Part shown: piece by piece, positions 3,800 to 55,536 of the stretch
Position numbering within the stretch: the first letter of the stretch is position 1
How the letters are laid out: each line of letters begins with the position of its first letter
Source of the DNA: an uncultured virus (IMG/VR IMGVR_UViG_3300010233_002389)
Lineage: Duplodnaviria > Heunggongvirae > Uroviricota > Caudoviricetes
Reading direction: 5' to 3' (one strand)
Length of the DNA stretch: 64,000 nucleotides
Virus record (IMG/VR): IMGVR_UViG_3300010233_002389
Notes under the pieces: model-generated
The model's input: only the letters and a program-made list of their open reading frames with translations
Databases searched by the model: none
What the model was told of the DNA's origin: nothing
Program-made: the position numbers and the translations under genes

Positions 3800-4394
3800 A
3801 ATTACGCACGAAGAAAACAAAACAATCTCATCCAACAACAAAACAAATTGGCTGGAACATTTTGAATGAATCAAAACTGGCAAAGTGTTTTTTGTGGGAT
3901 AATTGTGGTTTAGGTTGTTGTTTTTATGATTCAGACCCATTTGGAACATATAGCAATACATCGGATGGTTCTGTTATTTTTAAACAAACTGAAAGAGTGG
4001 CAATACAACATATAGTATTTAATACCTCAGGCGAGCTTGATCAGTTTATTTCAAAGTTTCTAATTTCAGTAGCTAATCATGCTCATAGAAGTTTGGTTAT
4101 ACCAAGCAATCGAGTGAGTCGATATATAGCCTCCGGCTCGCCCGAGTCTGGCGGATATGCTTTTGCTGGTTCCGCCATTGTGGGTGCACAAGATGGAATA
4201 ATATTCTCTCCAGCTTTACCTCCTAATATCGCCATTGAAGTACAAGGCTTCCCAGAACTTTTTGGCATGATTTCTTATTGTGATGATTATTTTGGAATGA
4301 TAATTCATTCGCCTCAGAAATTAAAAGTTGTTAAAACTGTACCCATCATTAGCTCGGCTAAAGACCCCATTATAATCGCCAAAGGAAATCTTTT

Positions 4395-8608: not shown

Positions 8609-9067
8609 ATGCCTGTAGAATCTAATGTCTATGATACTCCTGAGGGGATAACTCTTCGTAAAGACCAAGATGATCCTTTGGTGATGTATTTTATTATTAG
8701 AGAGTCTCTTAACATGGGTAAAGGAAAAATTGGCGCTCAGTGTGCTCATGCAGCTCAGATGATAATTCTTAAATACGCACAGCTTGCAATACATAAGTCA
8801 ACAGAAATCCTAGATGACACAGAGTTTAAAAAATACAATATCACTAGAGAGTGGTTAGAAGGATCATTTCGTAAGGTTGTATTAAGAGCTGATGATAAAG
8901 AATTTGAAAAAGTAAAAGAGCAATTGGATTGTTTCCTTGTTCGCGATGGTGGCTTAACAGAAATTGCTGCGGGAAGCGAAACTGTCCTTGTCTTATGGCC
9001 AATGAAGAAAAGCGAACGTCCTAAAACAATAAAGAGATTACAGATTCTTAAAGATGAAGAGTCATAA
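8609..9067 (+). CDS. pth2: peptidyl-tRNA hydrolase, Pth2 type
   Basis: MGKGKIGAQCAHA, KVVLRA, VRDGGLTEIAAGSETVL. Confidence 0.9.
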   Translation: MPVESNVYDTPEGITLRKDQDDPLVMYFIIRESLNMGKGKIGAQCAHAAQMIILKYAQLAIHKSTEILDDTEFKKYNITREWLEGSFRKVVLRADDKEFEKVKEQLDCFLVRDGGLTEIAAGSETVLVLWPMKKSERPKTIKRLQILKDEES

Positions 9068-14451: not shown

Positions 14452-15279
14452 ATGTGTATGACCGTAAAAGCAGCTAAATTATCCAATACATTTCTTTATG
14501 CCGGCGAAGCAGAACTTAATGGCAAGTATGTTCACGTACTAGCCTATCAAAACAAAGCAGAGTCATCTGGTCCAAACGCAATGATCTTACCGTTCCCATC
14601 CAATGTGAAAATGGATGAAAACAATATACTAGATACTCGTTCATATAAAGAGTTTTTAAAAAATATTGCGATGGCGACTAAAGAACAAACAAGAGATTTA
14701 TCAGATGATATCAATTTAAAATCTATAAGAAAGAGAAGCGCCAAAGTCTTTGACGTTGGTTCTTACACAGTTGTATTAGCCGAAAAAGCTATCCATATAA
14801 AAAAGGCAATTGAAAAAGTACCAGAAGATAAACGCCCAAGTATATCAAAAGAATTTCTTTCAGATTACACTAAGCTTTACCCAGACCAGCAAGTTGCCAT
14901 TTGTTGCTGGAATGGAAACATCAATCCTGAGCCATTACTTTGGTGGTACGAACCAACGAATAGAGAAAACATCTTTGTGCCAACAATGGATGCTCATGAC
15001 GGTAATGGTCCAGACCTTAATGCTAAGGTACAAAGAGATCATATTATTTCTACCGGCGCAACTACCCGTTCATTAATCGATAAGTTACCATTTAAAGACT
15101 ATACAAGCAGCACAGTTGACTACACAGATAATTTACCAGAAACAGCAAAGCAATTATTACCTACACGTGTTTGGGGAATAAAGATAGACGATTTTATAAA
15201 AAATGGTGATATGTTCATTGAGCCTTTTTCGACTATTAATGTAAATGATCGTCGCATTAAGATGATGGGCTGGGAATGA
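14452..15279 (+). CDS. hypothetical protein
   Basis: 275-aa ORF in a co-directional run; family not recognised with confidence. Confidence 0.6.
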   Translation: MCMTVKAAKLSNTFLYAGEAELNGKYVHVLAYQNKAESSGPNAMILPFPSNVKMDENNILDTRSYKEFLKNIAMATKEQTRDLSDDINLKSIRKRSAKVFDVGSYTVVLAEKAIHIKKAIEKVPEDKRPSISKEFLSDYTKLYPDQQVAICCWNGNINPEPLLWWYEPTNRENIFVPTMDAHDGNGPDLNAKVQRDHIISTGATTRSLIDKLPFKDYTSSTVDYTDNLPETAKQLLPTRVWGIKIDDFIKNGDMFIEPFSTINVNDRRIKMMGWE

Positions 15280-16214
15280 AACAGACCGTCGCTTTAGTTA
15301 TAGGCTATCCCGCTTCAGGAAAATCCACCGCTACAGAGAAAATGTTTAAAGATGGCTTTGCTCGCCTCAATAGAGATATTGAGGGCGGCAAACTTGAAGA
15401 CTTATTACCAAAACTAGATGCATTATTAAGCGATGGCAAAAGTGTTGTACTAGATAATACGTATGCGACAATAGCAAAGCGCGCTGGCGTTATAGAGATT
15501 GCAAAGAAGCACAACATACCAATCGAATGCTATCATATGCAAACAACAATCGAAGAGGCGCAGTTCAATGCTTGCAAACGAATGATTGAACGACATGGCA
15601 AAATCCTTACTCCAGAAGAAATTAACAAGAGCAAGGACCCGAACATGATCCCTACTGCCGTATTGTTCAAGTTCAAAAAGGAATTTGAAAAGCCAACAAC
15701 CGATGAGGGCTTTAGTGTTGTTCGTAAGATTAACTTCGTTCGTCAACTTGATTCTTCCTATTCGCAAGCCGCATTAATATTGGACTATGATGGTACATTG
15801 CGTCAGACTATAAATGGCAATGATAAGTATCCAGTTAAACCAGAACAAGTTGCAGCTATGCCTCGTAGGAAAGAAGTGCTCGCCCTATATAAGAAGAAGG
15901 GCTATCTACTATTAGGCGCATCAAACCAAAGCGGCATTGCCAAAGGAGAGTTAACTGAGCAGAATGCTATTGATTGCTTTGAGCAAACAAATAAGCTAAT
16001 TGGTCATAAAGTTGAATATAGTTTCTGCCCGCATAGAATTCCACCACTGACTTGTTATTGCAGGAAGCCGATGTGTGGTTTAGGGGTTACTTTTATAGAA
16101 AAGTATAAGTTAAACCCCAACCAATGCATAATGGTAGGGAATGCAACTTCGGATAAAACATTTTCAAGCCGATGTGGTTTCCAATACGTAGACCAAGCGG
16201 AATTTTTCGCCTGA
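15276..16214 (+). CDS. polynucleotide kinase/3'-phosphatase-like (P-loop kinase + HAD)
   Basis: GYPASGKST, NRD, VVLDNT; LDYDGT, SNQSG, CYCRKP. Confidence 0.85.
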   Translation: MKQTVALVIGYPASGKSTATEKMFKDGFARLNRDIEGGKLEDLLPKLDALLSDGKSVVLDNTYATIAKRAGVIEIAKKHNIPIECYHMQTTIEEAQFNACKRMIERHGKILTPEEINKSKDPNMIPTAVLFKFKKEFEKPTTDEGFSVVRKINFVRQLDSSYSQAALILDYDGTLRQTINGNDKYPVKPEQVAAMPRRKEVLALYKKKGYLLLGASNQSGIAKGELTEQNAIDCFEQTNKLIGHKVEYSFCPHRIPPLTCYCRKPMCGLGVTFIEKYKLNPNQCIMVGNATSDKTFSSRCGFQYVDQAEFFA

Positions 16215-25745: not shown

Positions 25746-25825
25746 GGTGTTGACGATAAATTGGCTAAATCAAGAGTCTGTAAAACTCCCGCTCCGGCTT
25801 GTAGGTTCGATTCCTATCAGCACCA
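25746..25825 (+). tRNA. tRNA-Tyr(GTA)
   Basis: GGTGTTG/CAGCACC; loop CTGTAAA; long variable arm; TTCGATT. Confidence 0.85.
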
Positions 25826-29011: not shown

Positions 29012-29132
29012 GTCTCGGTAGCTCAGCGGTAGAGCAGTCGGCTGTGGGAAGGTGCTGATAATGCAGCTTGGTTCAAAGCCAAACATTCCAAGAATAACCG
29101 ACTCGTCGAAGGTTCAATCCCTTCCCGGGACT
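29012..29132 (+). tRNA. tRNA with 49-nt anticodon-loop insert (Asn GTT or His GTG after removal)
   Basis: GTCTCGG/CCGGGAC; GCTC/GAGC D-stem; GTCGG/CCGAC anticodon stem enclosing 56 nt; GAAGG-TTCAATC-CCTTC. Confidence 0.75.
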
Positions 29133-31844: not shown

Positions 31845-32294
31845 ATGAACCACCCAGCGATAATGGAGCATGAATCACTAAAAGAAGATTTCATTGCTAT
31901 AGAAGATTTCGATAAAATTGGTTTGCGCGCAGGCACAGTAGTTACTGCCGAAGCTGTACATAAGAGCGATAAGCTATTAAATTTACAAGTTGATTTCGGA
32001 GAAACTCAATTAGCATTCTTGATAGATGATTCTGGAACGCTTGATGAGAATGGGCTCCCAATACGTCCATTAGTCCCAGTACAGAGATTGCGTACAGTTC
32101 TTGCGGGTATTGCTAAGTCATTTAAGCCAGAAGATGTGATTGGTAAGCAGTTTGTATTTATTACCAATTTGCCGCCACGAAAGATGATGGGGATAATGTC
32201 TGAAGGGATGATCCTCGCTGCTGCGGGAAATGATGGAACATTGGTATTAGTTAGTCCAACAGGTCCCGTAACTCCAGGAGTAAAATTAGGATGA
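31845..32294 (+). CDS. OB-fold tRNA-binding protein (Trbp111/MetRS C-terminal/CsaA family)
   Basis: EDFDKIGLRAG, SDKLL, RTVLAGIA, NLPPRKMMGIMSEGMIL. Confidence 0.85.
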   Translation: MNHPAIMEHESLKEDFIAIEDFDKIGLRAGTVVTAEAVHKSDKLLNLQVDFGETQLAFLIDDSGTLDENGLPIRPLVPVQRLRTVLAGIAKSFKPEDVIGKQFVFITNLPPRKMMGIMSEGMILAAAGNDGTLVLVSPTGPVTPGVKLG

Positions 32295-35214: not shown

Positions 35215-35285
35215 GGTCCCATAGTTTAAAAGTAGAACAAAAGCCTTTCAAGCTTTGAACGCCGGCGCGATACCGACTGGGATCA
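35215..35285 (+). tRNA. tRNA-Glu(TTC)
   Basis: GGTCCCA/TGGGATC; AAAGC-CTTTCAA-GCTTT; atypical T-loop CGCGATA. Confidence 0.75.
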
Positions 35286-39058: not shown

Positions 39059-39595
39059 ATGAATGATAAAGAACTTACAAAAAAATCAAAAAAATTATCT
39101 TATATCTTGCGTCATGATCCTAAGAGTGCTAGCTTGGTGCTCGATAATGCCGGATGGGTAAGTACAAGTAAGCTTCTAACTGCAACAGCTATGACTTCTG
39201 AAGAGCTTGATTGGGTTGTAGCTAACAATAATAAAAAACGGTTTGAGTTCAACGCTGATAAGACGCAGATACGAGCAAGCCAGGGTCATAGTGTAGAAGT
39301 AGATTTGGAATATGAACCTACAAAACCACCAGATGTACTGTATCATGGAACCGCCGTTCACTTTTACGATAACATCATGTTATATGGTCTGAAGAAAATG
39401 GATAGGCATCATGTACATTTATCTATAGACATTAAAACCGCAAAAACTGTTGGAAGTAGAAAAGGAACACCAATTGTATTAGAGATAAATGCAAAACAAA
39501 TGTATGAACAGGGGAAAGATTTTTATTTATCAACAAATGGAGTATGGTTAACTGACTATATACCATCAATCAATATTAAAAAAATAAGCATATAA
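39059..39595 (+). CDS. kptA: RNA 2'-phosphotransferase (KptA/Tpt1)
   Basis: SKKLSYILRH, KKRF, IRASQGHS, LYHGT, RHHVHLS, NGVWL. Confidence 0.95.
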   Translation: MNDKELTKKSKKLSYILRHDPKSASLVLDNAGWVSTSKLLTATAMTSEELDWVVANNNKKRFEFNADKTQIRASQGHSVEVDLEYEPTKPPDVLYHGTAVHFYDNIMLYGLKKMDRHHVHLSIDIKTAKTVGSRKGTPIVLEINAKQMYEQGKDFYLSTNGVWLTDYIPSINIKKISI

Positions 39596-39628: not shown

Positions 39629-42115
39629 ATGAAATTAAAACTTTCAGTATTGTATTTTATTATAGCTATTTGCTTTATAGCATGTAGTCCAACAAACAAA
39701 TCAGATGATGACATTTCATCAGTTAGCCAAGCTCTATCAGGTCCTATTGCTGCGTATGCATTTGAAGAAGGGTCCGGAAACAAAACAAACGAAATTTCTG
39801 GAAACTCAGCACTTCAGGGAACACTTTATAATAATGTTGGGTGGACAAATTCAGGTAAACACGGGAAAGGAGTAACCTTCCCAAGTGGTGGAACTTTTAT
39901 TCAAATTAATGATGCCACTTCTCTTCATCTCACTACTGGAATGACTTTATCAGCTTGGGTTAATCCAACAAGCACAAATTATTCAACAGCAGTTATTGCT
40001 AAAGAAGGCTCAAGCAATCCTAATTATGCATTATATGCTGGCAATGGTTCTAACATCCCTAAAGTTCAGTACACAAAATCCAACGCAACAAAAACAGTTA
40101 CTGATACAACTTCTGCTGTAGGTGCTTGGAATTATATTGCCGGCACATATGATGGAACAACACTTAAGATCTATCGTAATGGAGTATTAACAGCCAGTGC
40201 CGCACAACCATCACCTATCGATACATCAACCGGCTGGCTAGAAATAGGTTCTGATACTAATAATTCTGCTTATTTTCGTGGTACAATTGATGATGTGCGT
40301 ATTTATAATCGCGCTCTTTCGCTTGCTGAAATTCAAAGCGACATGAATACAGGAGTTGGACAAACTCCAGCTGACTCTGGAGCAGATGTGGCTGCCGAAG
40401 CATCAAATGACGCTACTACTGATGTAGACGCTACAACTGATGTAAATACAGATGCAACAGATGCGAAAACAGATGCTGATGCTACAGCTGACGCTACGAC
40501 TGATGTAAATACAGACGCAACAGATGCGAAAACAGACGCTGATGCAACAGCAGCCGATGCAACAAATGATGCAACAAATACAGATGCAACTGCTGACGCA
40601 ACTGCTGACGCAACTGCTGACGCAACTGCTGACGCAACTGCTGACGCAACAAATGATGCAACTACAGATGCAACTGCTGACGCAGTTGCTGATGTGGCTG
40701 CGGATACAGCTACCGATGTAGTTACAGATACAACAGCTGATGTATCAGTAGATGTAATTGCTGAGGCTGAAGCTGCCAGTCCTGAACCCACACCTGAACC
40801 AACTATTGAAGCTGGACCAGATGCAGAAGCCTCGTCCCCTCCATTCGATGCTGGTCCCAGTATGTTTCCTCTTAAGTTAGTACCAGGAAAACATTATTTA
40901 GCCGATCAAAATAATAAGCCTTTCTTAATTCAAGGCGATTCATCGTGGTCTCTTGGTATTAATACGCAACCAGCTGACGTAGATGCATTTTTAACAGATC
41001 GCGTTGCTAAAGGGTTTAATACTGTGTTTCTTCAAATGGAAGATACAAACCGGAATGGTGACGGAAGCATTACTGCAAATGCACAGGGAGCCTATCCATT
41101 TTTAGTTACTGGTGATTTTTCTACGCCAAATAATACTTATTTTACATATATTGATTCAGTACTTCAAAAAGCATTAGCCCAAAATATTTTAGTATTAATG
41201 TTTCCAACCTATTTAGGATATAATGGACTGGGACAAGGAGTTGCCCCACAGATGCAAGCAAGTGGGATTGCAAAACTTCAAACTTATGGTTCATATTTGG
41301 GTAATCGTTACAAATATTATCCTAATATTATTTGGGTTCAAGGTGGAGATAATAATGAATCTGTTAATATTCCGCTTGTAGATGCCGTTGCTACTGCAAT
41401 TAAAACAGCCGATCCTTTGCACCTTCAAACTGTCCATTATTTTACAGATTTCACGGCAAGTTCAACTTACGGAAATTATTCATGGCTTGATATGGATACT
41501 AATTATCAACAAAACCCAAGCATATTTAATGCGGTGGTAAGCCAATATAATCTTTCTGGCTCACGACCAAGTTTCTTAATTGAATCATATTATGAAGCAA
41601 GAGAAACTTTATCACAAAATTGGGGAATTATTGCAAGCCCACAAACAGTTCGACAAGAAGCTTATGAACCAATTATTGGTGGTAGTGGACAAATGTTCGG
41701 AAATGAAGTTACTTGGCATTTTGCTACTGGATGGCAATCAACACTAAATAGCCAAGGCGCACTTGATATGCAAAAACTACATTCATTAATTACTCCTCGT
41801 CATTGGGAGCTTTTAGTACCAGACCAAACTAATTCATTCTTAGTTGCTGGCGCCGGCTCAGGTACAACTAAAGCATCAGCCGCAAGAGCTTCTGATGGAA
41901 CGTGGGGTATAATTTATATTCCTAATTCGCGCAACATAACAATTGATTTGTCAGGATTTTCTCATCCTGTTACAGGTAAATGGTTTGACCCAACATCTGG
42001 AACAATCACTCCATTTCAGTGTTCTGCATTTAATAATTGTGGCTCACTTCCAATTACATCAACTCCAGGAAATAATTCTTCTGGCGATACTGATTGGGTT
42101 TTATTATTCGAATAA
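39629..42115 (+). CDS. lipoprotein with LamG-like domain, DA/T-rich linker, DUF4038 glycoside hydrolase-like and C-terminal beta domain
   Basis: lipobox FIAC; TYDG...IDDVRIYNRALS; KPFLIQGDSSW, KGFN, NIIWVQGGD, ESYYE, WFDP, DWVL. Confidence 0.8.
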   Translation: MKLKLSVLYFIIAICFIACSPTNKSDDDISSVSQALSGPIAAYAFEEGSGNKTNEISGNSALQGTLYNNVGWTNSGKHGKGVTFPSGGTFIQINDATSLHLTTGMTLSAWVNPTSTNYSTAVIAKEGSSNPNYALYAGNGSNIPKVQYTKSNATKTVTDTTSAVGAWNYIAGTYDGTTLKIYRNGVLTASAAQPSPIDTSTGWLEIGSDTNNSAYFRGTIDDVRIYNRALSLAEIQSDMNTGVGQTPADSGADVAAEASNDATTDVDATTDVNTDATDAKTDADATADATTDVNTDATDAKTDADATAADATNDATNTDATADATADATADATADATADATNDATTDATADAVADVAADTATDVVTDTTADVSVDVIAEAEAASPEPTPEPTIEAGPDAEASSPPFDAGPSMFPLKLVPGKHYLADQNNKPFLIQGDSSWSLGINTQPADVDAFLTDRVAKGFNTVFLQMEDTNRNGDGSITANAQGAYPFLVTGDFSTPNNTYFTYIDSVLQKALAQNILVLMFPTYLGYNGLGQGVAPQMQASGIAKLQTYGSYLGNRYKYYPNIIWVQGGDNNESVNIPLVDAVATAIKTADPLHLQTVHYFTDFTASSTYGNYSWLDMDTNYQQNPSIFNAVVSQYNLSGSRPSFLIESYYEARETLSQNWGIIASPQTVRQEAYEPIIGGSGQMFGNEVTWHFATGWQSTLNSQGALDMQKLHSLITPRHWELLVPDQTNSFLVAGAGSGTTKASAARASDGTWGIIYIPNSRNITIDLSGFSHPVTGKWFDPTSGTITPFQCSAFNNCGSLPITSTPGNNSSGDTDWVLLFE
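40425..40685 (+). repeat. coding tandem repeats (about 60-bp duplication and 12-bp GCAACTGCTGAC run)
   Basis: DATTDVNTDATDAKTDA x2; ATAD x5. Confidence 0.85.
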
Positions 42116-42159: not shown

Positions 42160-44205
42160 ATGAATAAAATATTCACAATTGTGTTGTTGTTTTTATTGGT
42201 CGCTTGTTCTCCATCAGGAACTGATTTTATTGGACAAACAAAACAAAAATTATCTGGTCCTGTTGCCGCATATGCATTTGAAGAAGGGTCCGGATATAAA
42301 GCAAACGAAATCTCCGGTAACAGCGCCCTTCAAGGAACACTTTATAATGGTGTTGGATGGACTAATTCAGGTAAACATGGAAATGGAGTCACTTTCCCAT
42401 CTGGAGGAACATTTATACAAATCAATGATGCGGCTTCACTTCATTTAACAACAGGGATGACGCTATCAGCTTGGGTTAACCCAACTAGTACGAACTATCC
42501 AGGAGCGGTAATCGCAAAAGAAGGTTCCAGTAATCCAAATTATGCTTTATTTGCCGGTACAGGAACAAATATTCCACAAATCCAATATACAAATAATAAC
42601 ATAACAAAGTCAATCAGTGATACCACTTCGGCTATTGGCTCATGGACATATATAGCTGGTACATATGATGGTACGACTCTTCGTATGTATCGTGATGGTG
42701 TTCTAACCGCTAGTGCCACACAGCCATCACCTATGGATACATCTACCGGATGGCTAGAGATTGGCTCTGATACAAATATTGCTGCTTACTTTCGCGGCAC
42801 AATTGATGATGTACGAGTTTATGATAGAGCATTGTCACAATCTGAAATTCAATCAGACATGAATACTGGGGTTGGGCAAACTCCAGTAGATGCTAGCGTT
42901 GATGCTCCCTCAGATTCTAATACTGAAGCCGAGGCAGCAACCGTCACACCAGAAGCCGGGTCGGAGTCAGGCTCTGACTCAGGCGCGAGTGTTTATCCAT
43001 TAAAACTTGTAACTGGGAAACGGTATCTTGCTGATCAAACTGACAAACCTTTCCTTATGCAAGCTGACACTGCATGGTCTTTACCTGCACGACTACAAGA
43101 TGCCGATGCTGAAATATATTTAGAAGATCGTCGAGTTAAAGGCTTCAACACAGTTTTGATCGAATTAATCAATCATTTGGATGGACCAAGCGGGATTAAC
43201 AATGCCTACAACATCGCGCCATTCAACGTACCTGGTGATTTCTCAACGCCAAATGACGCCTACTTTACGTATATAGATGCTGTCTTACAGAAAGCGCTTT
43301 CCAAGAACCTCCTCGTAATTGCTTTTCCAGCTTATCTTGGTTATACGGGAACGAATGAGGGGTGGATGGCGGAGATGATCACAAGTGGAGCTACGAAATG
43401 CGCTGCATATGGGACCTATCTTGGCAATCGTTACAAGAACTATCCAAACATTATTTGGGCGAACGGTGGAGATGACTCAACAGCAGATAAATCACTTGTG
43501 GATGCCATCGCGTCCGCCATCCGGGCAGCCGGCGCAACACAATTGCAGACGGCACATGCTTACCCAGACGTTTCAGCTCGTGCCTATTATGGCTCGTACA
43601 CATGGTTGGATGTTGATACTGTATATCGACAAACACCAAGTATTCTAGCAGCTTCATTAGTTGAATATAATCTCGTACCTATAAAACCATTTTTCCTCAT
43701 TGAGTCAGCATACGAGGGCGGAACCACTTCTCCAAACGCGCAAGTAGTTCGCCAAGAAGCTTATGAACCATTACTTGGCGGTGGTTTTGGACAATTTTTC
43801 GGCAATTACCCACTTTGGATCTTCGACTCAGGATGGCAAGCCGCACTTAATAGCCAGGGGTCATTGGACATGCAACGACTTCATACGCTATTCACATCTC
43901 GACGATGGGATCTCCTCGTTCCAGATCAGACTTCGGCGTTTATAACATCAGGCGGGTCAGGAATATCTGCCGCACGTGCATCAGATGGTTCTTGGGGAAT
44001 TGTTTATATTCCTACAACTCGCAACATGATGATTGACTTATCTGGATTCTCACATCCAGTTAATGCAAAATGGTTTGACCCAACCAATGGAACATATACA
44101 ACTATTCAATGTTCTCCATTCAATAATTGCGGAACTCGGTCAATATTATCTACTCCTGGTAATAATAGCGCTGGCGACCAAGATTGGATTTTAGTATTTG
44201 AATAA
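42160..44205 (+). CDS. paralogous LamG + DUF4038-like lipoprotein
   Basis: lipobox LVAC; near-identical LamG region to 39629; shorter linker. Confidence 0.8.
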   Translation: MNKIFTIVLLFLLVACSPSGTDFIGQTKQKLSGPVAAYAFEEGSGYKANEISGNSALQGTLYNGVGWTNSGKHGNGVTFPSGGTFIQINDAASLHLTTGMTLSAWVNPTSTNYPGAVIAKEGSSNPNYALFAGTGTNIPQIQYTNNNITKSISDTTSAIGSWTYIAGTYDGTTLRMYRDGVLTASATQPSPMDTSTGWLEIGSDTNIAAYFRGTIDDVRVYDRALSQSEIQSDMNTGVGQTPVDASVDAPSDSNTEAEAATVTPEAGSESGSDSGASVYPLKLVTGKRYLADQTDKPFLMQADTAWSLPARLQDADAEIYLEDRRVKGFNTVLIELINHLDGPSGINNAYNIAPFNVPGDFSTPNDAYFTYIDAVLQKALSKNLLVIAFPAYLGYTGTNEGWMAEMITSGATKCAAYGTYLGNRYKNYPNIIWANGGDDSTADKSLVDAIASAIRAAGATQLQTAHAYPDVSARAYYGSYTWLDVDTVYRQTPSILAASLVEYNLVPIKPFFLIESAYEGGTTSPNAQVVRQEAYEPLLGGGFGQFFGNYPLWIFDSGWQAALNSQGSLDMQRLHTLFTSRRWDLLVPDQTSAFITSGGSGISAARASDGSWGIVYIPTTRNMMIDLSGFSHPVNAKWFDPTNGTYTTIQCSPFNNCGTRSILSTPGNNSAGDQDWILVFE

Positions 44206-44618: not shown

Positions 44619-45053
44619 ATGGATACATTAATTGAATATTATAAGAAGAATGATTTTCACCGGCTGCGTGCTCTAGTAAAGGGCTATGGAGCCGAAGGAG
44701 TTACTATTCACAAAGCTATTTGGAGATCGAAGGGGCAGAAGAAAGCCTCATTGCGATACCGAAAGCAAGTGGTTGGTAACTGGGCTAGAAGCTGTTATCT
44801 TGCGTACGGGTTAGTGCGCGGAATTCCATATAAAAATGTAGAGAAGCATTGCGGCGAGCACAATAAGCCATATGCGGATAGTATTTACAACGTACTAAAA
44901 AGCGTTGGCGAAAACTCCTACTATAAAGAATGGAATATCGAAAAAATACAGGCTTGGCTTAATGACGAGAAGTATATAGAAAAGCCAGCCAAAGAGATTC
45001 CACCCAAAGAAGAGCCAAAGAAAGAATCCTGGCTCAAGAGGATATTCCAATGA
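44619..45053 (+). CDS. hypothetical basic protein (LAYGLVRGIPY motif)
   Basis: GAAGGG RBS; its stop overlaps the ATG at 45050. Confidence 0.7.
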   Translation: MDTLIEYYKKNDFHRLRALVKGYGAEGVTIHKAIWRSKGQKKASLRYRKQVVGNWARSCYLAYGLVRGIPYKNVEKHCGEHNKPYADSIYNVLKSVGENSYYKEWNIEKIQAWLNDEKYIEKPAKEIPPKEEPKKESWLKRIFQ

Positions 45054-45391
45054 CGTAGTTACAAGAAGGCGATAAGCTTTATGTAATCGTACGTTCCGAC
45101 ATTACAAAAGGCTACATGTTGGCTCAGAGCTGCCATTGTGCCATTCAATTTTTTATGGAACATACAGAGCTAGCCACTGAATGGTATAACAAATCAAATT
45201 ATATTGCGGTGCTAGAAATAAAGAATGAACCAGCGATTCATGAATTATTAGAAAAGGCGTCGAGCAAGCAAATTCGATTCTCCATTTTCAGGGAGCCAGA
45301 TATTAATGACGAAATAACTGCGATTGTGTTGGAACCTGGCGACAAGAGCAGAAAATTATGTGCTAATTTACCTTTGGCATTGAAAGAATAA
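45050..45391 (+). CDS. Pth2-like peptidyl-tRNA hydrolase with in-frame TAG at codon 3
   Basis: GAGGA RBS; ATG ACG TAG then LQEGDKLYVIVRSDITKGYMLAQSCH...FREPDI..EITAI; the Pth2-like N-terminal strand lies upstream of ATG 45116. Confidence 0.75.
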
Positions 45392-46188: not shown

Positions 46189-46262
46189 GTGCTTATAGCT
46201 CAATGGTAGAGCGGGAAAATTCTAACTTTTATCGGTTGGTGGTTCAAGTCCACTTAAGCACA
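46189..46262 (+). tRNA. probable amber suppressor tRNA(CTA); alternative Arg(TCT)
   Basis: GTGCTTA/TAAGCAC; AAAA-TTCTAAC-TTTT gives a canonical U32-U33-CUA-A37 loop; the TCT register needs A32 and an A-C closing pair. Confidence 0.6.
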
Positions 46263-46379
46263 CTTTTTGTTTTTGACGATCAATATAACGCTTAATTGCA
46301 GTCCCACTTACACCAAATATTCTTCCCAATTCTTCATAACTGTGATTTTTGGTTAGTTCAATAAGTTTATAGGGCACAA

Positions 46380-47576: not shown

Positions 47577-47581
47577 AATTT

Positions 47582-47652
47582 GCGCCCATAGCTCAAAGGA
47601 AGAGCAGCGTTCTCTAAAAATGCGGTTGAGATGTCGGAATTCTCTGGGCGCG
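47582..47652 (+). tRNA. amber suppressor tRNA(CTA)
   Basis: GCGCCCA/TGGGCGC+G73; GCTC/GAGC; GCGTT-CTCTAAA-AATGC; T-arm GAGAT-GTCGGAA-TTCTC. Confidence 0.8.
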
Positions 47653-47654
47653 CA

Positions 47655-48306: not shown

Positions 48307-48316
48307 AAGGAATCAA

Positions 48317-48880
48317 ATGGACCAATAGCTTCAACTCATTTCAGATATGCAATCATGTAACCAATCGTCCAATCAAACGATTTATGAACATGGTATTGCC
48401 GTTCGCGATAAACTCTTCGAACTTATTAACTCGCAAAACCTAAGCCAATGGCGTATCCCAAATTGGTTCAATGAACATAAAGATAAGCTTTTTAGTAATT
48501 TGTATGATTGGGAAATATTAGAAACGTATACTACATTTCATGATTGCGGAAAACCTTATTGCAGAACTGTAGATGAGAATGGGAAACAACACTTTCCCAA
48601 TCATGCAAATACATCTGCCGATAAGTGGCTTGAAGTCGATGGGTCGAATATCATTGCAAATCTGATTCGAAATGATATGATGGTCCATACAATGAAATCC
48701 TCCGATATAGAGGAATTCTGTAAGGACCCAAAGATGGCGTGCAGTTTACTTTTAACGGCACTTGCAGAAATCCACGCGAACAGTATACTGTTCGGAGGTA
48801 TTGAGTCGGTAAGCTTCAAAATAAAGTGGAAGCAAATTGATAAGATAGGGAAGAAGATTTGTAGCACTATAGTGGTATAA
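48317..48880 (+). CDS. HD-domain phosphohydrolase with in-frame TAG at codon 4
   Basis: AAGGA RBS; ATG GAC CAA TAG CTT in frame with ORF 48347; EHG...FHDCGKP...HFPNHA. Confidence 0.7.
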
Positions 48881-55074: not shown

Positions 55075-55536
55075 ATGGCAATTGTAGATAAAGACTTACT
55101 AAAAAAACTAAAGAAAGAAACAGGGCTTGGTATGAATGAATGCAAAGCTGCGCTTGAATCTTTAGATAACGATTATGACGGCGCCCTTCATGCCCTTGAA
55201 GAAAGAGCCCGAGAAAAAGCCGAGAAGCTTGCGGGTGCCGAAGCTTCCGAAGGAGTCATTGCTTCTTATGTTCACCATGACCGTAGAATCGGCTCTATGG
55301 TAGAGCTTAACTGTCAAACAGACTTCGCTGCTCGCTCAGAAGAATTTCTAGCATTTGCTGATGAACTTGCTTTGCAAATTGCGGCAACCAACCCTAAGGA
55401 TATTATAGAATTGCAAATGCAAGAGTCTATGTTCCAAAGCGGCAAAATAATTGAATATTGCAGAATTGAACTATCTGCTAAAATTAAAGAGAATGTAGTA
55501 ATAAAGAGAATTCATAGGTTTGCATTATCAGAATGA
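55075..55536 (+). CDS. tsf: elongation factor Ts (short form)
   Basis: LKKETGLGMNECKAAL, ASEGVIASYVH, VELNCQTDFAARS, LALQIAATNP, KIKENVVIKR. Confidence 0.9.
   Translation: MAIVDKDLLKKLKKETGLGMNECKAALESLDNDYDGALHALEERAREKAEKLAGAEASEGVIASYVHHDRRIGSMVELNCQTDFAARSEEFLAFADELALQIAATNPKDIIELQMQESMFQSGKIIEYCRIELSAKIKENVVIKRIHRFALSE

What the first reader, a model, noticed from the sequence alone, without database searches (positions are those of the whole stretch)
45050..45391. Second Pth2-like gene interrupted by TAG at codon 3
Seen: GAGGA RBS, ATG coupled to the upstream stop (ATGA), then ACG TAG, then KLYVIVRSDI..G...AQSCH. That matches the Pth2 N-terminal strand (compare VMYFIIRESLNMGKGKIGAQCAH at 8609), which the ORF track's start at 45116 would delete. 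Established: very short ORFs such as the lambda bar minigenes cause peptidyl-tRNA drop-off, the substrate of Pth. Inference: unsuppressed translation gives a Met-Thr minigene and suppressed translation gives the hydrolase, a possible feedback loop.
Basis: partly seen in the sequence, partly recalled or inferred. Interest (0 to 1): 0.8.

Follow-up and report, generated by a model that had tools for sequence, protein, structure and literature searches.

The report
Suppressor-tRNA-gated tRNA enzyme module
Many large bacteriophages keep a stop codon right after the start of two genes for enzymes likely to act on tRNAs, and carry a matching tRNA that can read through it, which points to an undescribed gene switch and a purpose for these phages' unexplained suppressor tRNAs.

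Summary
Confirmed, and larger than reported. The TAG at codon 3 (45056-58) is conserved: 129 of 153 homolog groups (80% identity) have a start codon, 1-9 codons, then TAG, against 1 of 56 canonical phage Pth2 groups. A tRNA(CUA) lies within 4 kb in 72 of 94 (control 3 of 49). The window holds two such tRNAs and a second gated gene, an HD protein of CCA-enzyme type (ATG 48317, TAG codon 4; 48 of 58 groups gated). Four lineages switched to TGA or TAA with the matching anticodon. In phages CBB and fHe-Yen9-04 the HD TAG lies inside the domain, so in-frame readthrough is needed. These genomes use code 11. The protein has the Pth2 fold, but the catalytic Lys and DxGxT are replaced (invariant Q-x-x-H, EPD, T), so hydrolase activity is unproven. 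Gate by a dedicated suppressor: about 0.9. Best mechanism (about 0.5): the suppressor is a sentinel substrate giving negative feedback on tRNA-end enzymes. The minigene drop-off idea is poorly supported. No expression data. Not found in print in ten searches; the XacN1 paper could not find its suppressors' target, and its ORF364 is now a candidate.

The parts
44619..45053 (+). Gene X: small basic protein of unknown function (..YLAYGLVRG.PY..VE.. motif), not gated; its TGA overlaps the ATG of the Pth2-like gene
   Evidence: Homologs lie within about 2.5 kb of the Pth2-like gene in 36 of 153 groups. No Pfam, NCBIfam, PHROG or PADLOC hit; no usable Atlas hit.
45038..45042 (+). Shine-Dalgarno-like GAGGA, 7 nt before the ATG
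   Evidence: Family-wide, an SD of 4 nt or more precedes the first start in 39 of 129 groups and the codon after TAG in 5 of 129.
45050..45391 (+). Amber-gated Pth2-fold gene (EPD subfamily), 113 aa on readthrough
   Evidence: (Foldseek 2ZV3 TM 0.74, E 2e-7)
45056..45058 (+). Conserved in-frame TAG at codon 3 (gate 1)
   Evidence: 129 of 153 groups; canonical Pth2 control 1 of 56
46189..46263 (+). tRNA gene with CUA anticodon (candidate amber suppressor 1); A73, no encoded CCA, weak anticodon stem (four A-U pairs plus a G.A mismatch)
   Evidence: ARAGORN; Rfam RF00005 55 bits; the MFE fold does not form the anticodon stem
47581..47653 (+). tRNA gene with CUA anticodon (candidate amber suppressor 2); G73, non-canonical T-loop
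   Evidence: ARAGORN; cloverleaf in the MFE fold; not listed by Rfam at the gathering score
48317..48880 (+). Second amber-gated gene: stand-alone HD protein resembling the HD/body region of tRNA nucleotidyltransferases; AAGGA at 48307-48311; internal ATG at 48347
   Evidence: 3WFO, E 2e-4; TM 0.60; TM 0.76-0.81 to predicted CCA-enzyme and poly(A)-polymerase HD regions; 48 of 58 groups gated, 47 of 58 with the Pth2-like gene within 4 kb
48326..48328 (+). Conserved in-frame TAG at codon 4 of the HD gene (gate 2)
8609..9067 (+). Canonical, ungated Pth2 (keeps GKGK and DGGLT); comparator, not part of the module

Best explanation
A portable module in standard-code large phages (rarely on bacterial contigs): a dedicated nonsense-suppressor tRNA plus one or two genes whose full-length products need that tRNA to read an early stop. 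SHOWN by comparison: the stop, its position, its linkage to the tRNA, stop/anticodon co-switching, code 11, and the folds. INFERRED (about 0.9): ribosomes start at 45050 and 48317; the release factor gives 2-3-residue peptides unless charged tRNA(CUA) decodes the UAG; the inserted residue does not matter. INFERRED (about 0.5): both products act on tRNA 3' ends (a Pth2-fold de-acylase with a remodelled active site; an HD phosphoesterase of CCA-enzyme type), and the suppressor is their sentinel substrate. Excess enzyme discharges or inactivates it and stops their own synthesis. When real substrates (peptidyl-, blocked or end-damaged tRNA, e.g. from host defence) occupy the enzymes, the sentinel stays charged and more enzyme is made: prfB-like autoregulation read through a tRNA.
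For: Gate in 129 of 153 groups at median 42% pairwise identity; canonical Pth2 control 1 of 56, p 4e-30. tRNA(CUA) within 4 kb in 72 of 94 vs 3 of 49, and 2 of those 3 loci also hold the EPD gene. Five gated genomes without an ARAGORN call in the flank each had a CUA tRNA or tRNA-like element: 3 called, 2 with a shrunken D-arm beside the gene, read by eye. Co-switching: TGA with tRNA(UCA) in L212 and L273; TAA with tRNA(UUA) in L341 and L309; each is nearest to TAG-gated sequences in the tree. HD gene gated in 48 of 58; fusions in both orders carry one TAG at the front. CBB and fHe-Yen9-04 carry the HD TAG near codon 47, between the first His and the HD motif. RaK2 has an ATG after the TAG, has lost EPD, and no CUA tRNA was found by pattern. 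Purine after the TAG in 124 of 129 vs 78 of 162 natural TAG stops. For the sentinel step: the 183 CUA tRNAs keep no acceptor-stem or discriminator identity (A73 113, G 42, U 25); both gated proteins come from tRNA-3'-end families; no other gene family in the flanks was regularly gated, so the tRNA's only evident clients are these two proteins.
Against: No expression, readthrough or enzyme data. The feedback sign rests on family resemblance alone. The canonical catalytic Lys is present in 1 of 153 and DxGxT is replaced by EPDI, so the protein may be inactive or do other chemistry. 24 of 153 groups lack the TAG gate (5 have a clear TAA/TGA gate, 1 a TGA at codon 11; others are second genes of an operon or plain), and 9 of 21 such loci still have a tRNA(CUA). 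The codon after TAG is ATT in 61 of 129 and R-T-N in 103 of 129 (background 15%), which could allow near-cognate re-initiation. In three cluster C mycobacteriophages a GTG follows the TAG and the SD spacing fits that GTG. The HD gene has a Met at 48347 that is invariant in 7 of 7 aligned sequences, so a short form could be made ungated. In this window the base after each TAG is atypical (T and C) and both tRNAs have structural oddities. At least one of the 129 (L329) is really the upstream gene's stop. Searches used EPD-based patterns and kept the best 80 of 269, 460+ and 482+ hits, so EPD invariance is partly circular and the fractions hold only for that sample.
Confidence: 0.5

Rival explanations
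1. Readiness or timing gate: the enzymes damage or discharge host tRNAs and are made only once the phage's own tRNAs are processed and charged; the suppressor reports on that and is spared.
For: The window and many loci sit in tRNA arrays (15 tRNA genes); CCA is encoded in only 37 of 183 CUA tRNAs vs 322 of 665 others. Recoding as late-gene timing is proposed in Borges et al. (bioRxiv 10.1101/2021.08.26.457843, passages).
Against: Many loci, and the Nocardia, Streptosporangiaceae and planctomycete contigs, have the suppressor as the only tRNA in view. It is often within a few hundred bases of the gene, so probably co-transcribed, which gives little delay (inference).
Confidence: 0.18
2. Positive loop: the proteins mature or charge the suppressor (aminoacyl transfer, end healing), giving a bistable switch that turns on wider stop readthrough.
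For: The tRNAs lack conserved synthetase identity elements; no synthetase appeared among the 30 largest neighbour clusters; the active site is remodelled. TAG-ended genes have an in-frame next gene in 12 of 31 cases vs 51 of 294 (p 0.008, uncorrected, module cases not removed).
Against: No conserved downstream target family was found. A hydrolase fold has no activation chemistry (knowledge). Host LysRS and GlnRS are known to charge many amber tRNAs (recalled).
Confidence: 0.13
3. Termination-stress sensor: the tRNA is a fixed competitor, and readthrough rises when release factor is limiting, producing rescue enzymes when peptidyl-tRNA builds up at stops.
For: Weak-termination context (purine at +4 in 124 of 129; effect of context recalled). 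A GGQ release-factor-like gene is near in 6 of 81 groups. Analogy to prfB.
Against: Works with UAG, UGA or UAA alike, so it is not tied to one factor. It does not explain why both gated products come from tRNA-acting families.
Confidence: 0.1
4. One reading: the unsuppressed Met-Thr minigene causes peptidyl-tRNA drop-off, which feeds back on hydrolase synthesis.
For: 62 of 129 stops are at codon 3; minigene expression is a listed cause of drop-off (PMC11202043, passage).
Against: 34 different codons precede the stop. The same gate is on the HD gene, sometimes near codon 47. There is no route from drop-off to more suppression.
Confidence: 0.04
5. No readthrough: ribosomes terminate at TAG and re-initiate at the next near-cognate codon; the tRNA is a bystander.
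For: ATT/ATA/ATC follow the TAG in 71 of 129; GTG in cluster C mycobacteriophages.
Against: The window has TTA CAA GAA GGC GAT AAG after the TAG, with no ATG, GTG, TTG or ATN before strand 1. It cannot explain stop/anticodon co-switching, stops inside the HD domain, or second internal TAGs in 5 groups.
Confidence: 0.04
6. Pseudogene, sequencing error, or genome-wide TAG recoding (code 15).
For: No reads were available for this window.
Against: Conserved down to 17% pairwise identity. Window coding fraction is 0.90 under code 11 vs 0.88 with TAG=Q, and TAG ends 10 of 126 ORFs. In 46 loci of 15 kb or more TAG ends 107 of 1134 ORFs and long ORFs hold few internal TAGs, whereas Lak-A1 rises from 0.40 to 0.82.
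Confidence: 0.01

Closest known systems
Pth2 (PF01981; archaeal/eukaryotic peptidyl-tRNA hydrolase 2; phage PTH2 noted by Iyer et al. 2021, PMC7824862)
   Same: Fold and length (TM 0.74 to 2ZV3); Pfam score above cutoff; Q-x-x-H helix.
   Different: Catalytic Lys replaced by Tyr/Gln/other, DxGxT by EPDI; early stop codon; linked suppressor tRNA and HD gene. Canonical phage Pth2 genes lack both gate and tRNA. The W.EQPE-type PTRHD1 subgroup is a recalled resemblance, not tested.
Stop-codon-recoded phages (code 15/4; Lak, crAss-like; Borges et al.)
   Same: Phage suppressor tRNA reads stop codons; proposed to control gene expression.
   Different: Here the genome stays code 11, and only one or two tRNA-enzyme genes carry one conserved stop at a position where the residue is free.
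prfB (RF2) frameshift autoregulation (recalled)
   Same: Early in-frame stop used as a sensor of a translation activity.
   Different: In-frame decoding by a dedicated tRNA, not a frameshift; the products are not release factors.
Streptomyces bldA tRNA / TTA codons (recalled)
   Same: One special tRNA gates genes through a single codon.
   Different: A stop codon rather than a rare sense codon; the tRNA is linked to its clients; the clients are tRNA-acting folds.
Pyrrolysine and selenocysteine systems
   Same: Dedicated tRNA decodes UAG or UGA in particular genes; ARAGORN labels these tRNAs Pyl/SeC by anticodon.
   Different: Ordinary cloverleaf with variable loop 4-5 in 163 of 183; the stop lies outside the active site; the anticodon can be CUA, UCA or UUA.
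HD domain of class II tRNA nucleotidyltransferases (3WFO; end-healing phosphoesterase role recalled)
   Same: H..HDxGKP..HF.xH motifs and fold.
   Different: Stand-alone 187 aa or fused to the Pth2-like domain; no polymerase head; Glu151 lies where the last Asp is expected (my alignment by eye); amber-gated.

Membership tests
Pth2 | Pth2 alpha/beta fold | tested here: met
   AF2 pLDDT 96, four strands and four helices; Foldseek TM 0.67-0.79 to Pth2 structures in the top ten
Pth2 | PF01981 above gathering score | tested here: met
   45.8 bits vs 23
Pth2 | NCBIfam equivalog cutoffs (TIGR00283, NF003314) | tested here: not met
   35 vs 82 and 32.5 vs 126; the canonical-looking 8609 protein also falls short (61.3, 59.6), so this test is weak
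Pth2 | Catalytic Lys of GKxxAQ and Asp/Thr of DxGxT (roles recalled; Powers 2005 not held) | tested here: not met
   Lys column: Tyr 95, Gln 22, Lys 1 of 153; D-A-G-H-T of 2ZV3 aligns to E-P-D-I-D
Pth2 | Hydrolyses peptidyl-tRNA | not testable with these tools
   needs an assay
Code-15 recoded phage | Coding density rises with TAG=Gln; TAG inside many genes | tested here: not met
   Lak-A1 positive control
Pyrrolysine system | tRNA-Pyl architecture (3-nt variable loop, no TTC T-loop; recalled) | tested here: not met
   variable loop 4-5 in 163 of 183 parsed CUA tRNAs; the parser required a TTC-like loop, so that half is circular
Pyrrolysine system | pylSBCD genes | not tested
   no dedicated search; none among the 58 window proteins scanned
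Lambda bar-type toxic minigene | Fixed very short ORF with a specific last sense codon (recalled) | tested here: not met
   stop at codon 2-10, 34 different preceding codons
HD phosphohydrolase of CCA-enzyme type | H...HD metal ligands and fold | tested here: met
   H25, H75, D76, H96, H124 invariant in 7 of 7; fold
HD phosphohydrolase of CCA-enzyme type | Curated HD profile score | tested here: inconclusive
   no Pfam hit; TIGR00277 17 bits vs cutoff 27.6
Known anti-phage defence systems | PADLOC profile hit | tested here: not met
   0 hits for 4 of 4 proteins

The most novel reading that the evidence does not exclude
A new class of gene control: a dedicated suppressor tRNA serves as a built-in sentinel whose charged state sets, through one early stop codon, the level of a new Pth2-fold tRNA de-acylase and an HD tRNA-end enzyme. 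It would give large phages a demand-driven counter to host tRNA-targeting defences, account for many orphan suppressor tRNAs in standard-code phages, and supply a ready stepping stone to genome-wide stop recoding.
Probability: 0.4. Interest if true: 0.95.

Novelty: categorically new. Interest (0 to 1): 0.88.

Why it matters
Suppressor tRNAs in standard-code phages have had no known target: the XacN1 paper says it could not identify genes targeted by its two CUA tRNAs (PMC5852040, passage). Here its ORF364 begins Met-Lys-TAG. The same holds in cultured phages CBB, fHe-Yen9-04, ME3, RsoM2USA, pT24, Arash and CM1, where these genes are annotated truncated, split or not at all. The question becomes testable with a reporter and one tRNA gene. 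It also defines a Pth2-fold subfamily with a different active site and suggests how suppressors could be kept before a genome is recoded.

Tried and rejected
No whole genome is held for the window. No sequencing run was listed, so there is no read or expression evidence either way. No complex prediction for the two proteins was obtained, so whether they bind is open. Single-protein locus search gave 1 relative of 50 candidates; alignments were needed. Database proteins starting MTQIKEGDKL were not used as evidence for Gln, because they may be code-15 calls of a TAG. Density tests on 8-kb loci were too noisy and were redone on loci of 15 kb or more. Promoter and terminator scans were at chance level (28 vs 21.4 +/- 5.2; 3 vs 2.7). 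No significant hairpin at either gate (z -1.35 and +1.52). The amino acid carried by the tRNA could not be assigned; second internal TAGs fall mostly in E/D/Q/K columns. The HD gene was not found in 5 of 5 gated genomes tested, so it is optional. The Pth2-like gene was in 1 of 401 genomes of the Nocardia order sample, so cellular copies are sporadic. Earlier findings of this scan: nothing returned. Literature: ten searches showed no paper describing the module; only the open-licence library is covered and no supplements were read.

Full report
OBSERVATION. The window reads as part of a large phage genome (15 tRNA genes; translation and RNA-repair genes; phage identity is inferred from this and from the homologs). 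At 45038-45058 it reads GAGGA, 7 nt, ATG ACG TAG; the ATG overlaps the TGA of the upstream ORF, and the frame then stays open for 110 codons. With the TAG read as a residue the 113-aa product matches PF01981 from profile position 2; the 45116 ORF starts at position 18 and would lack the first strand of a confident model. The Met at 45116 is a Gln column in 126 of 153 groups. The window uses code 11: coding fraction 0.90 vs 0.88 with TAG=Q, and TAG ends 10 of 126 ORFs.

THE STOP IS CONSERVED. I pooled the window with 351 loci from viral, metagenome, genome and named-phage searches (the large scans kept the best 80 of 269, 104, 482+ and 460+ hits). 321 had a full-length hit with EPD and fell into 155 groups at 80% identity, 153 with upstream sequence in view. 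In 129 of 153 a start codon is followed within 1-9 codons by TAG: codon 2 in 7, 3 in 62, 4 in 28, 5 in 23, 6-10 in 9. In 110 of the 129 no ATG, GTG or TTG lies between the TAG and strand 1. Pairwise identity runs from 17 to 80%, median 42%. Matched control: canonical phage Pth2 genes show this in 1 of 56 groups, and that one has a normal start after the stop (78 of 80 loci had the motif). Second control: 71 of 90 module ORFs vs 34 of 1552 other ORFs in the HD loci. An SD of 4 nt or more precedes the first start in 39 of 129 and the post-TAG codon in 5. The base after the TAG is a purine in 124 of 129, vs 78 of 162 natural TAG stops; the window is one of two exceptions with T.

A MATCHING tRNA. 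The window has two tRNA(CUA) genes, at 46189 and 47581. A tRNA(CUA) lies within 4 kb in 72 of 94 gated groups with full flanks, 9 of 21 others, and 3 of 49 control loci, two of which also hold the EPD gene. In five gated genomes without a call in the flank, three had an ARAGORN tRNA(CUA) elsewhere and two had a CUA tRNA-like element with a shrunken D-arm beside the gene, missed by ARAGORN and Rfam and read by eye. The strongest link is co-switching. L212 (Met-Thr-TGA) and L273 (TGA at codon 8) have tRNA(UCA); L341 (Met-Lys-TAA) and L309 (TAA at codon 5) have tRNA(UUA), the last 19 kb away in a 676-kb record where no CUA tRNA was found among the pattern hits checked (2 of 5). Each has TAG-gated nearest neighbours in a FastTree tree. 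L222 (TAA) and L193 (TGA at codon 11) are on short contigs with no tRNA in view.

A SECOND GATED GENE. At 48317 the window reads AAGGA, 5 nt, ATG GAC CAA TAG, then 183 open codons. The product is an HD protein whose nearest solved relative by sequence and fold is the tRNA-processing enzyme of 3WFO and related entries (E 2e-4; TM 0.60, E 3e-3); predicted CCA-enzyme HD regions give TM 0.76-0.81. Of 58 groups (81 loci), 48 are gated, 47 have the Pth2-like gene within 4 kb and 36 have a tRNA(CUA) in the flank. The two genes are fused in both orders, with one TAG at the front. In CBB and fHe-Yen9-04 the HD gene has a normal start and a TAG near codon 47, between the first His and the HD motif, which re-initiation cannot bypass. 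A scan of the whole window for SD, ATG, early TAG and 70 or more open codons gave four hits: these two genes, one that is an upstream gene's own stop, and one antisense to a long gene. In 46 loci of 15 kb or more TAG ends 107 of 1134 ORFs and long ORFs carry few internal TAGs; Lak-A1, a recoded control, rises from 0.40 to 0.82. A third, ungated neighbour (gene X, 44619-45053) accompanies 36 of 153 groups. The HD gene is optional (0 of 5 genomes).

RANGE. Eight cultured phages examined have the gate: XacN1, CM1, CBB, fHe-Yen9-04, ME3, RsoM2USA, pT24 and Arash. A tRNA(CUA) was confirmed in seven; CM1 was not searched genome-wide. RaK2 has an ATG after the TAG, has lost EPD, and none of 3 pattern matches was a tRNA. 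Three cluster C mycobacteriophages read (A/G)TG-TAG-GTG with a tRNA(CUA) 0.5-0.6 kb on; there the SD fits the second GTG, so they may be ungated. Nocardia, Streptosporangiaceae, planctomycete, Nitrospiraceae, Bacillota and Bacteroidota contigs carry gate plus lone tRNA, but only 1 of 401 genomes in the Nocardia order sample did.

WHAT THE PROTEIN IS. It has the Pth2 fold (TM 0.74 to 2ZV3) but fails the active-site test: the Lys of GKxxAQ is Lys in 1 of 153, and DAGHT aligns to EPDID (catalytic roles recalled, the source paper was not held). Q26 (152), H29 (153) and T90 (151) are near invariant; E82-P83-D84 is invariant partly by selection. The 8609 protein keeps the canonical residues. It works like a Pth2-fold tRNA-end enzyme by inference; I do not file it as a Pth2 hydrolase.

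MECHANISM. Readthrough by the linked tRNA is the only reading that covers conservation, linkage, co-switching, fusions and internal stops (about 0.9). The purpose is inferred. The 183 distinct CUA tRNAs keep no acceptor or discriminator identity, the stop type and the residue are free, no other family among the 30 largest neighbour clusters is regularly gated, and both clients belong to families acting at the tRNA 3' end. That fits a sentinel: the tRNA reports the activity of enzymes that act on it, and so limits them (about 0.5). Rivals are a readiness gate on host-tRNA-damaging enzymes (0.18), a positive charging loop (0.13), a release-factor sensor (0.10), the minigene model (0.04) and re-initiation (0.04). 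Re-initiation may still supply a basal leak: ATT follows the TAG in 61 of 129, and the HD gene has a conserved internal Met. Both window tRNAs have oddities, so this copy may be weak.

LITERATURE. Ten searches (listings and abstract starts) showed no description of this module. Passages read: PMC5852040 (XacN1: no target found for its CUA tRNAs); bioRxiv 10.1101/2021.08.26.457843 (recoding and suppressors; no occurrence of peptidyl, hydrolase or HD domain); PMC7918605 (in-frame stops; no occurrence of peptidyl or hydrolase); PMC7824862 (phage PTH2 as ribosome rescue; no occurrence of stop codon); PMC7162821 (no occurrence of suppressor or PTH2 in the main text); PMC8386662 (a phage suppressor of unknown purpose); PMC11202043, PMC3488237 and PMC13023423 (background). 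No supplements were read, and those of PMC7162821 and the bioRxiv paper could bear on novelty; subscription journals are not covered. prfB, bldA, bar minigenes, tRNA-Pyl features, synthetase preferences and context effects are recalled.

VERDICT. A real, widespread and apparently undescribed suppressor-gated module; gate well supported by comparison, function untested. Interest 0.88.

Noticed in passing
L023, L033, L035, L047, L051, L039/L040, L050 (about 0.7-1 kb upstream of the match): The 5' end of the Pth2-like gene is duplicated: an upstream copy (Met-x-TAG-strand 1) runs into an HNH/NUMOD-like ORF, and the full gene follows with its own TAG. It looks like homing-endonuclease insertion that re-supplies the gate.
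   Followed up: partly
L052:3344-4321, L032:3665-4333: Gene X ends in TAG in frame with an ATG-started Pth2-like gene, so suppression would fuse them; L032 has a tRNA(UUA).
   Followed up: partly
L106 (Lak-A1) 3251 and 3935-4260: In this TAG-recoded genome the linked tRNA is UUA and the gene has no in-frame stop; an out-of-frame ATG AAT TAG followed by an A AAA AAC run sits just before strand 1. May be chance.
   Followed up: no
window 7656/7660, 13395/13405, 30970/30974, 39040/39059: Four of nine TAG-ended plus-strand ORFs have an in-frame next ORF, so suppression could fuse them; across loci 12 of 31 vs 51 of 294, not cleaned of module cases.
   Followed up: partly
CUA tRNAs across loci: Pair 31:39 is unpaired in 61 of 183 vs 73 of 665 other tRNAs; some have mismatched acceptor stems or shrunken D-arms that ARAGORN and Rfam miss (L046, L075).
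   Followed up: partly
L017, L022, L031 and 10 more, directly beside the Pth2-like gene: A conserved small protein (IFHFNK..W.IK.KG..YYV.H...KETP) in 13 of 81 groups, and a basic helical family in 12 of 81.
   Followed up: no
L120:4595-5389 and 14 more HD loci: The commonest neighbour of the HD gene (15 of 58, about 4 kb upstream) looks like a tRNA-His guanylyltransferase by recalled motif; not scanned.
   Followed up: no
window 39059-39595, 15276-16214, 31845-32294, 55075-55536: Other RNA-repair or translation genes: Tpt1/KptA, kinase-phosphatase, tRNA-binding domain, EF-Ts.
   Followed up: no
window 29012-29132, 35215-35285, 25746-25825: Rfam tRNA hits not called by ARAGORN; the first is 121 nt and may hold an insertion.
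   Followed up: no
window 39629-42115 and 42160-44205: Tandem paralogs with LamG, apiosidase-like and collagen-binding-like domains.
   Followed up: no
L102 (Myrna), L103 (Catera), L418 (Arash), L415 (ME3): The CUA tRNA is annotated as Ser, Arg, Phe or OTHER in these records.
   Followed up: yes
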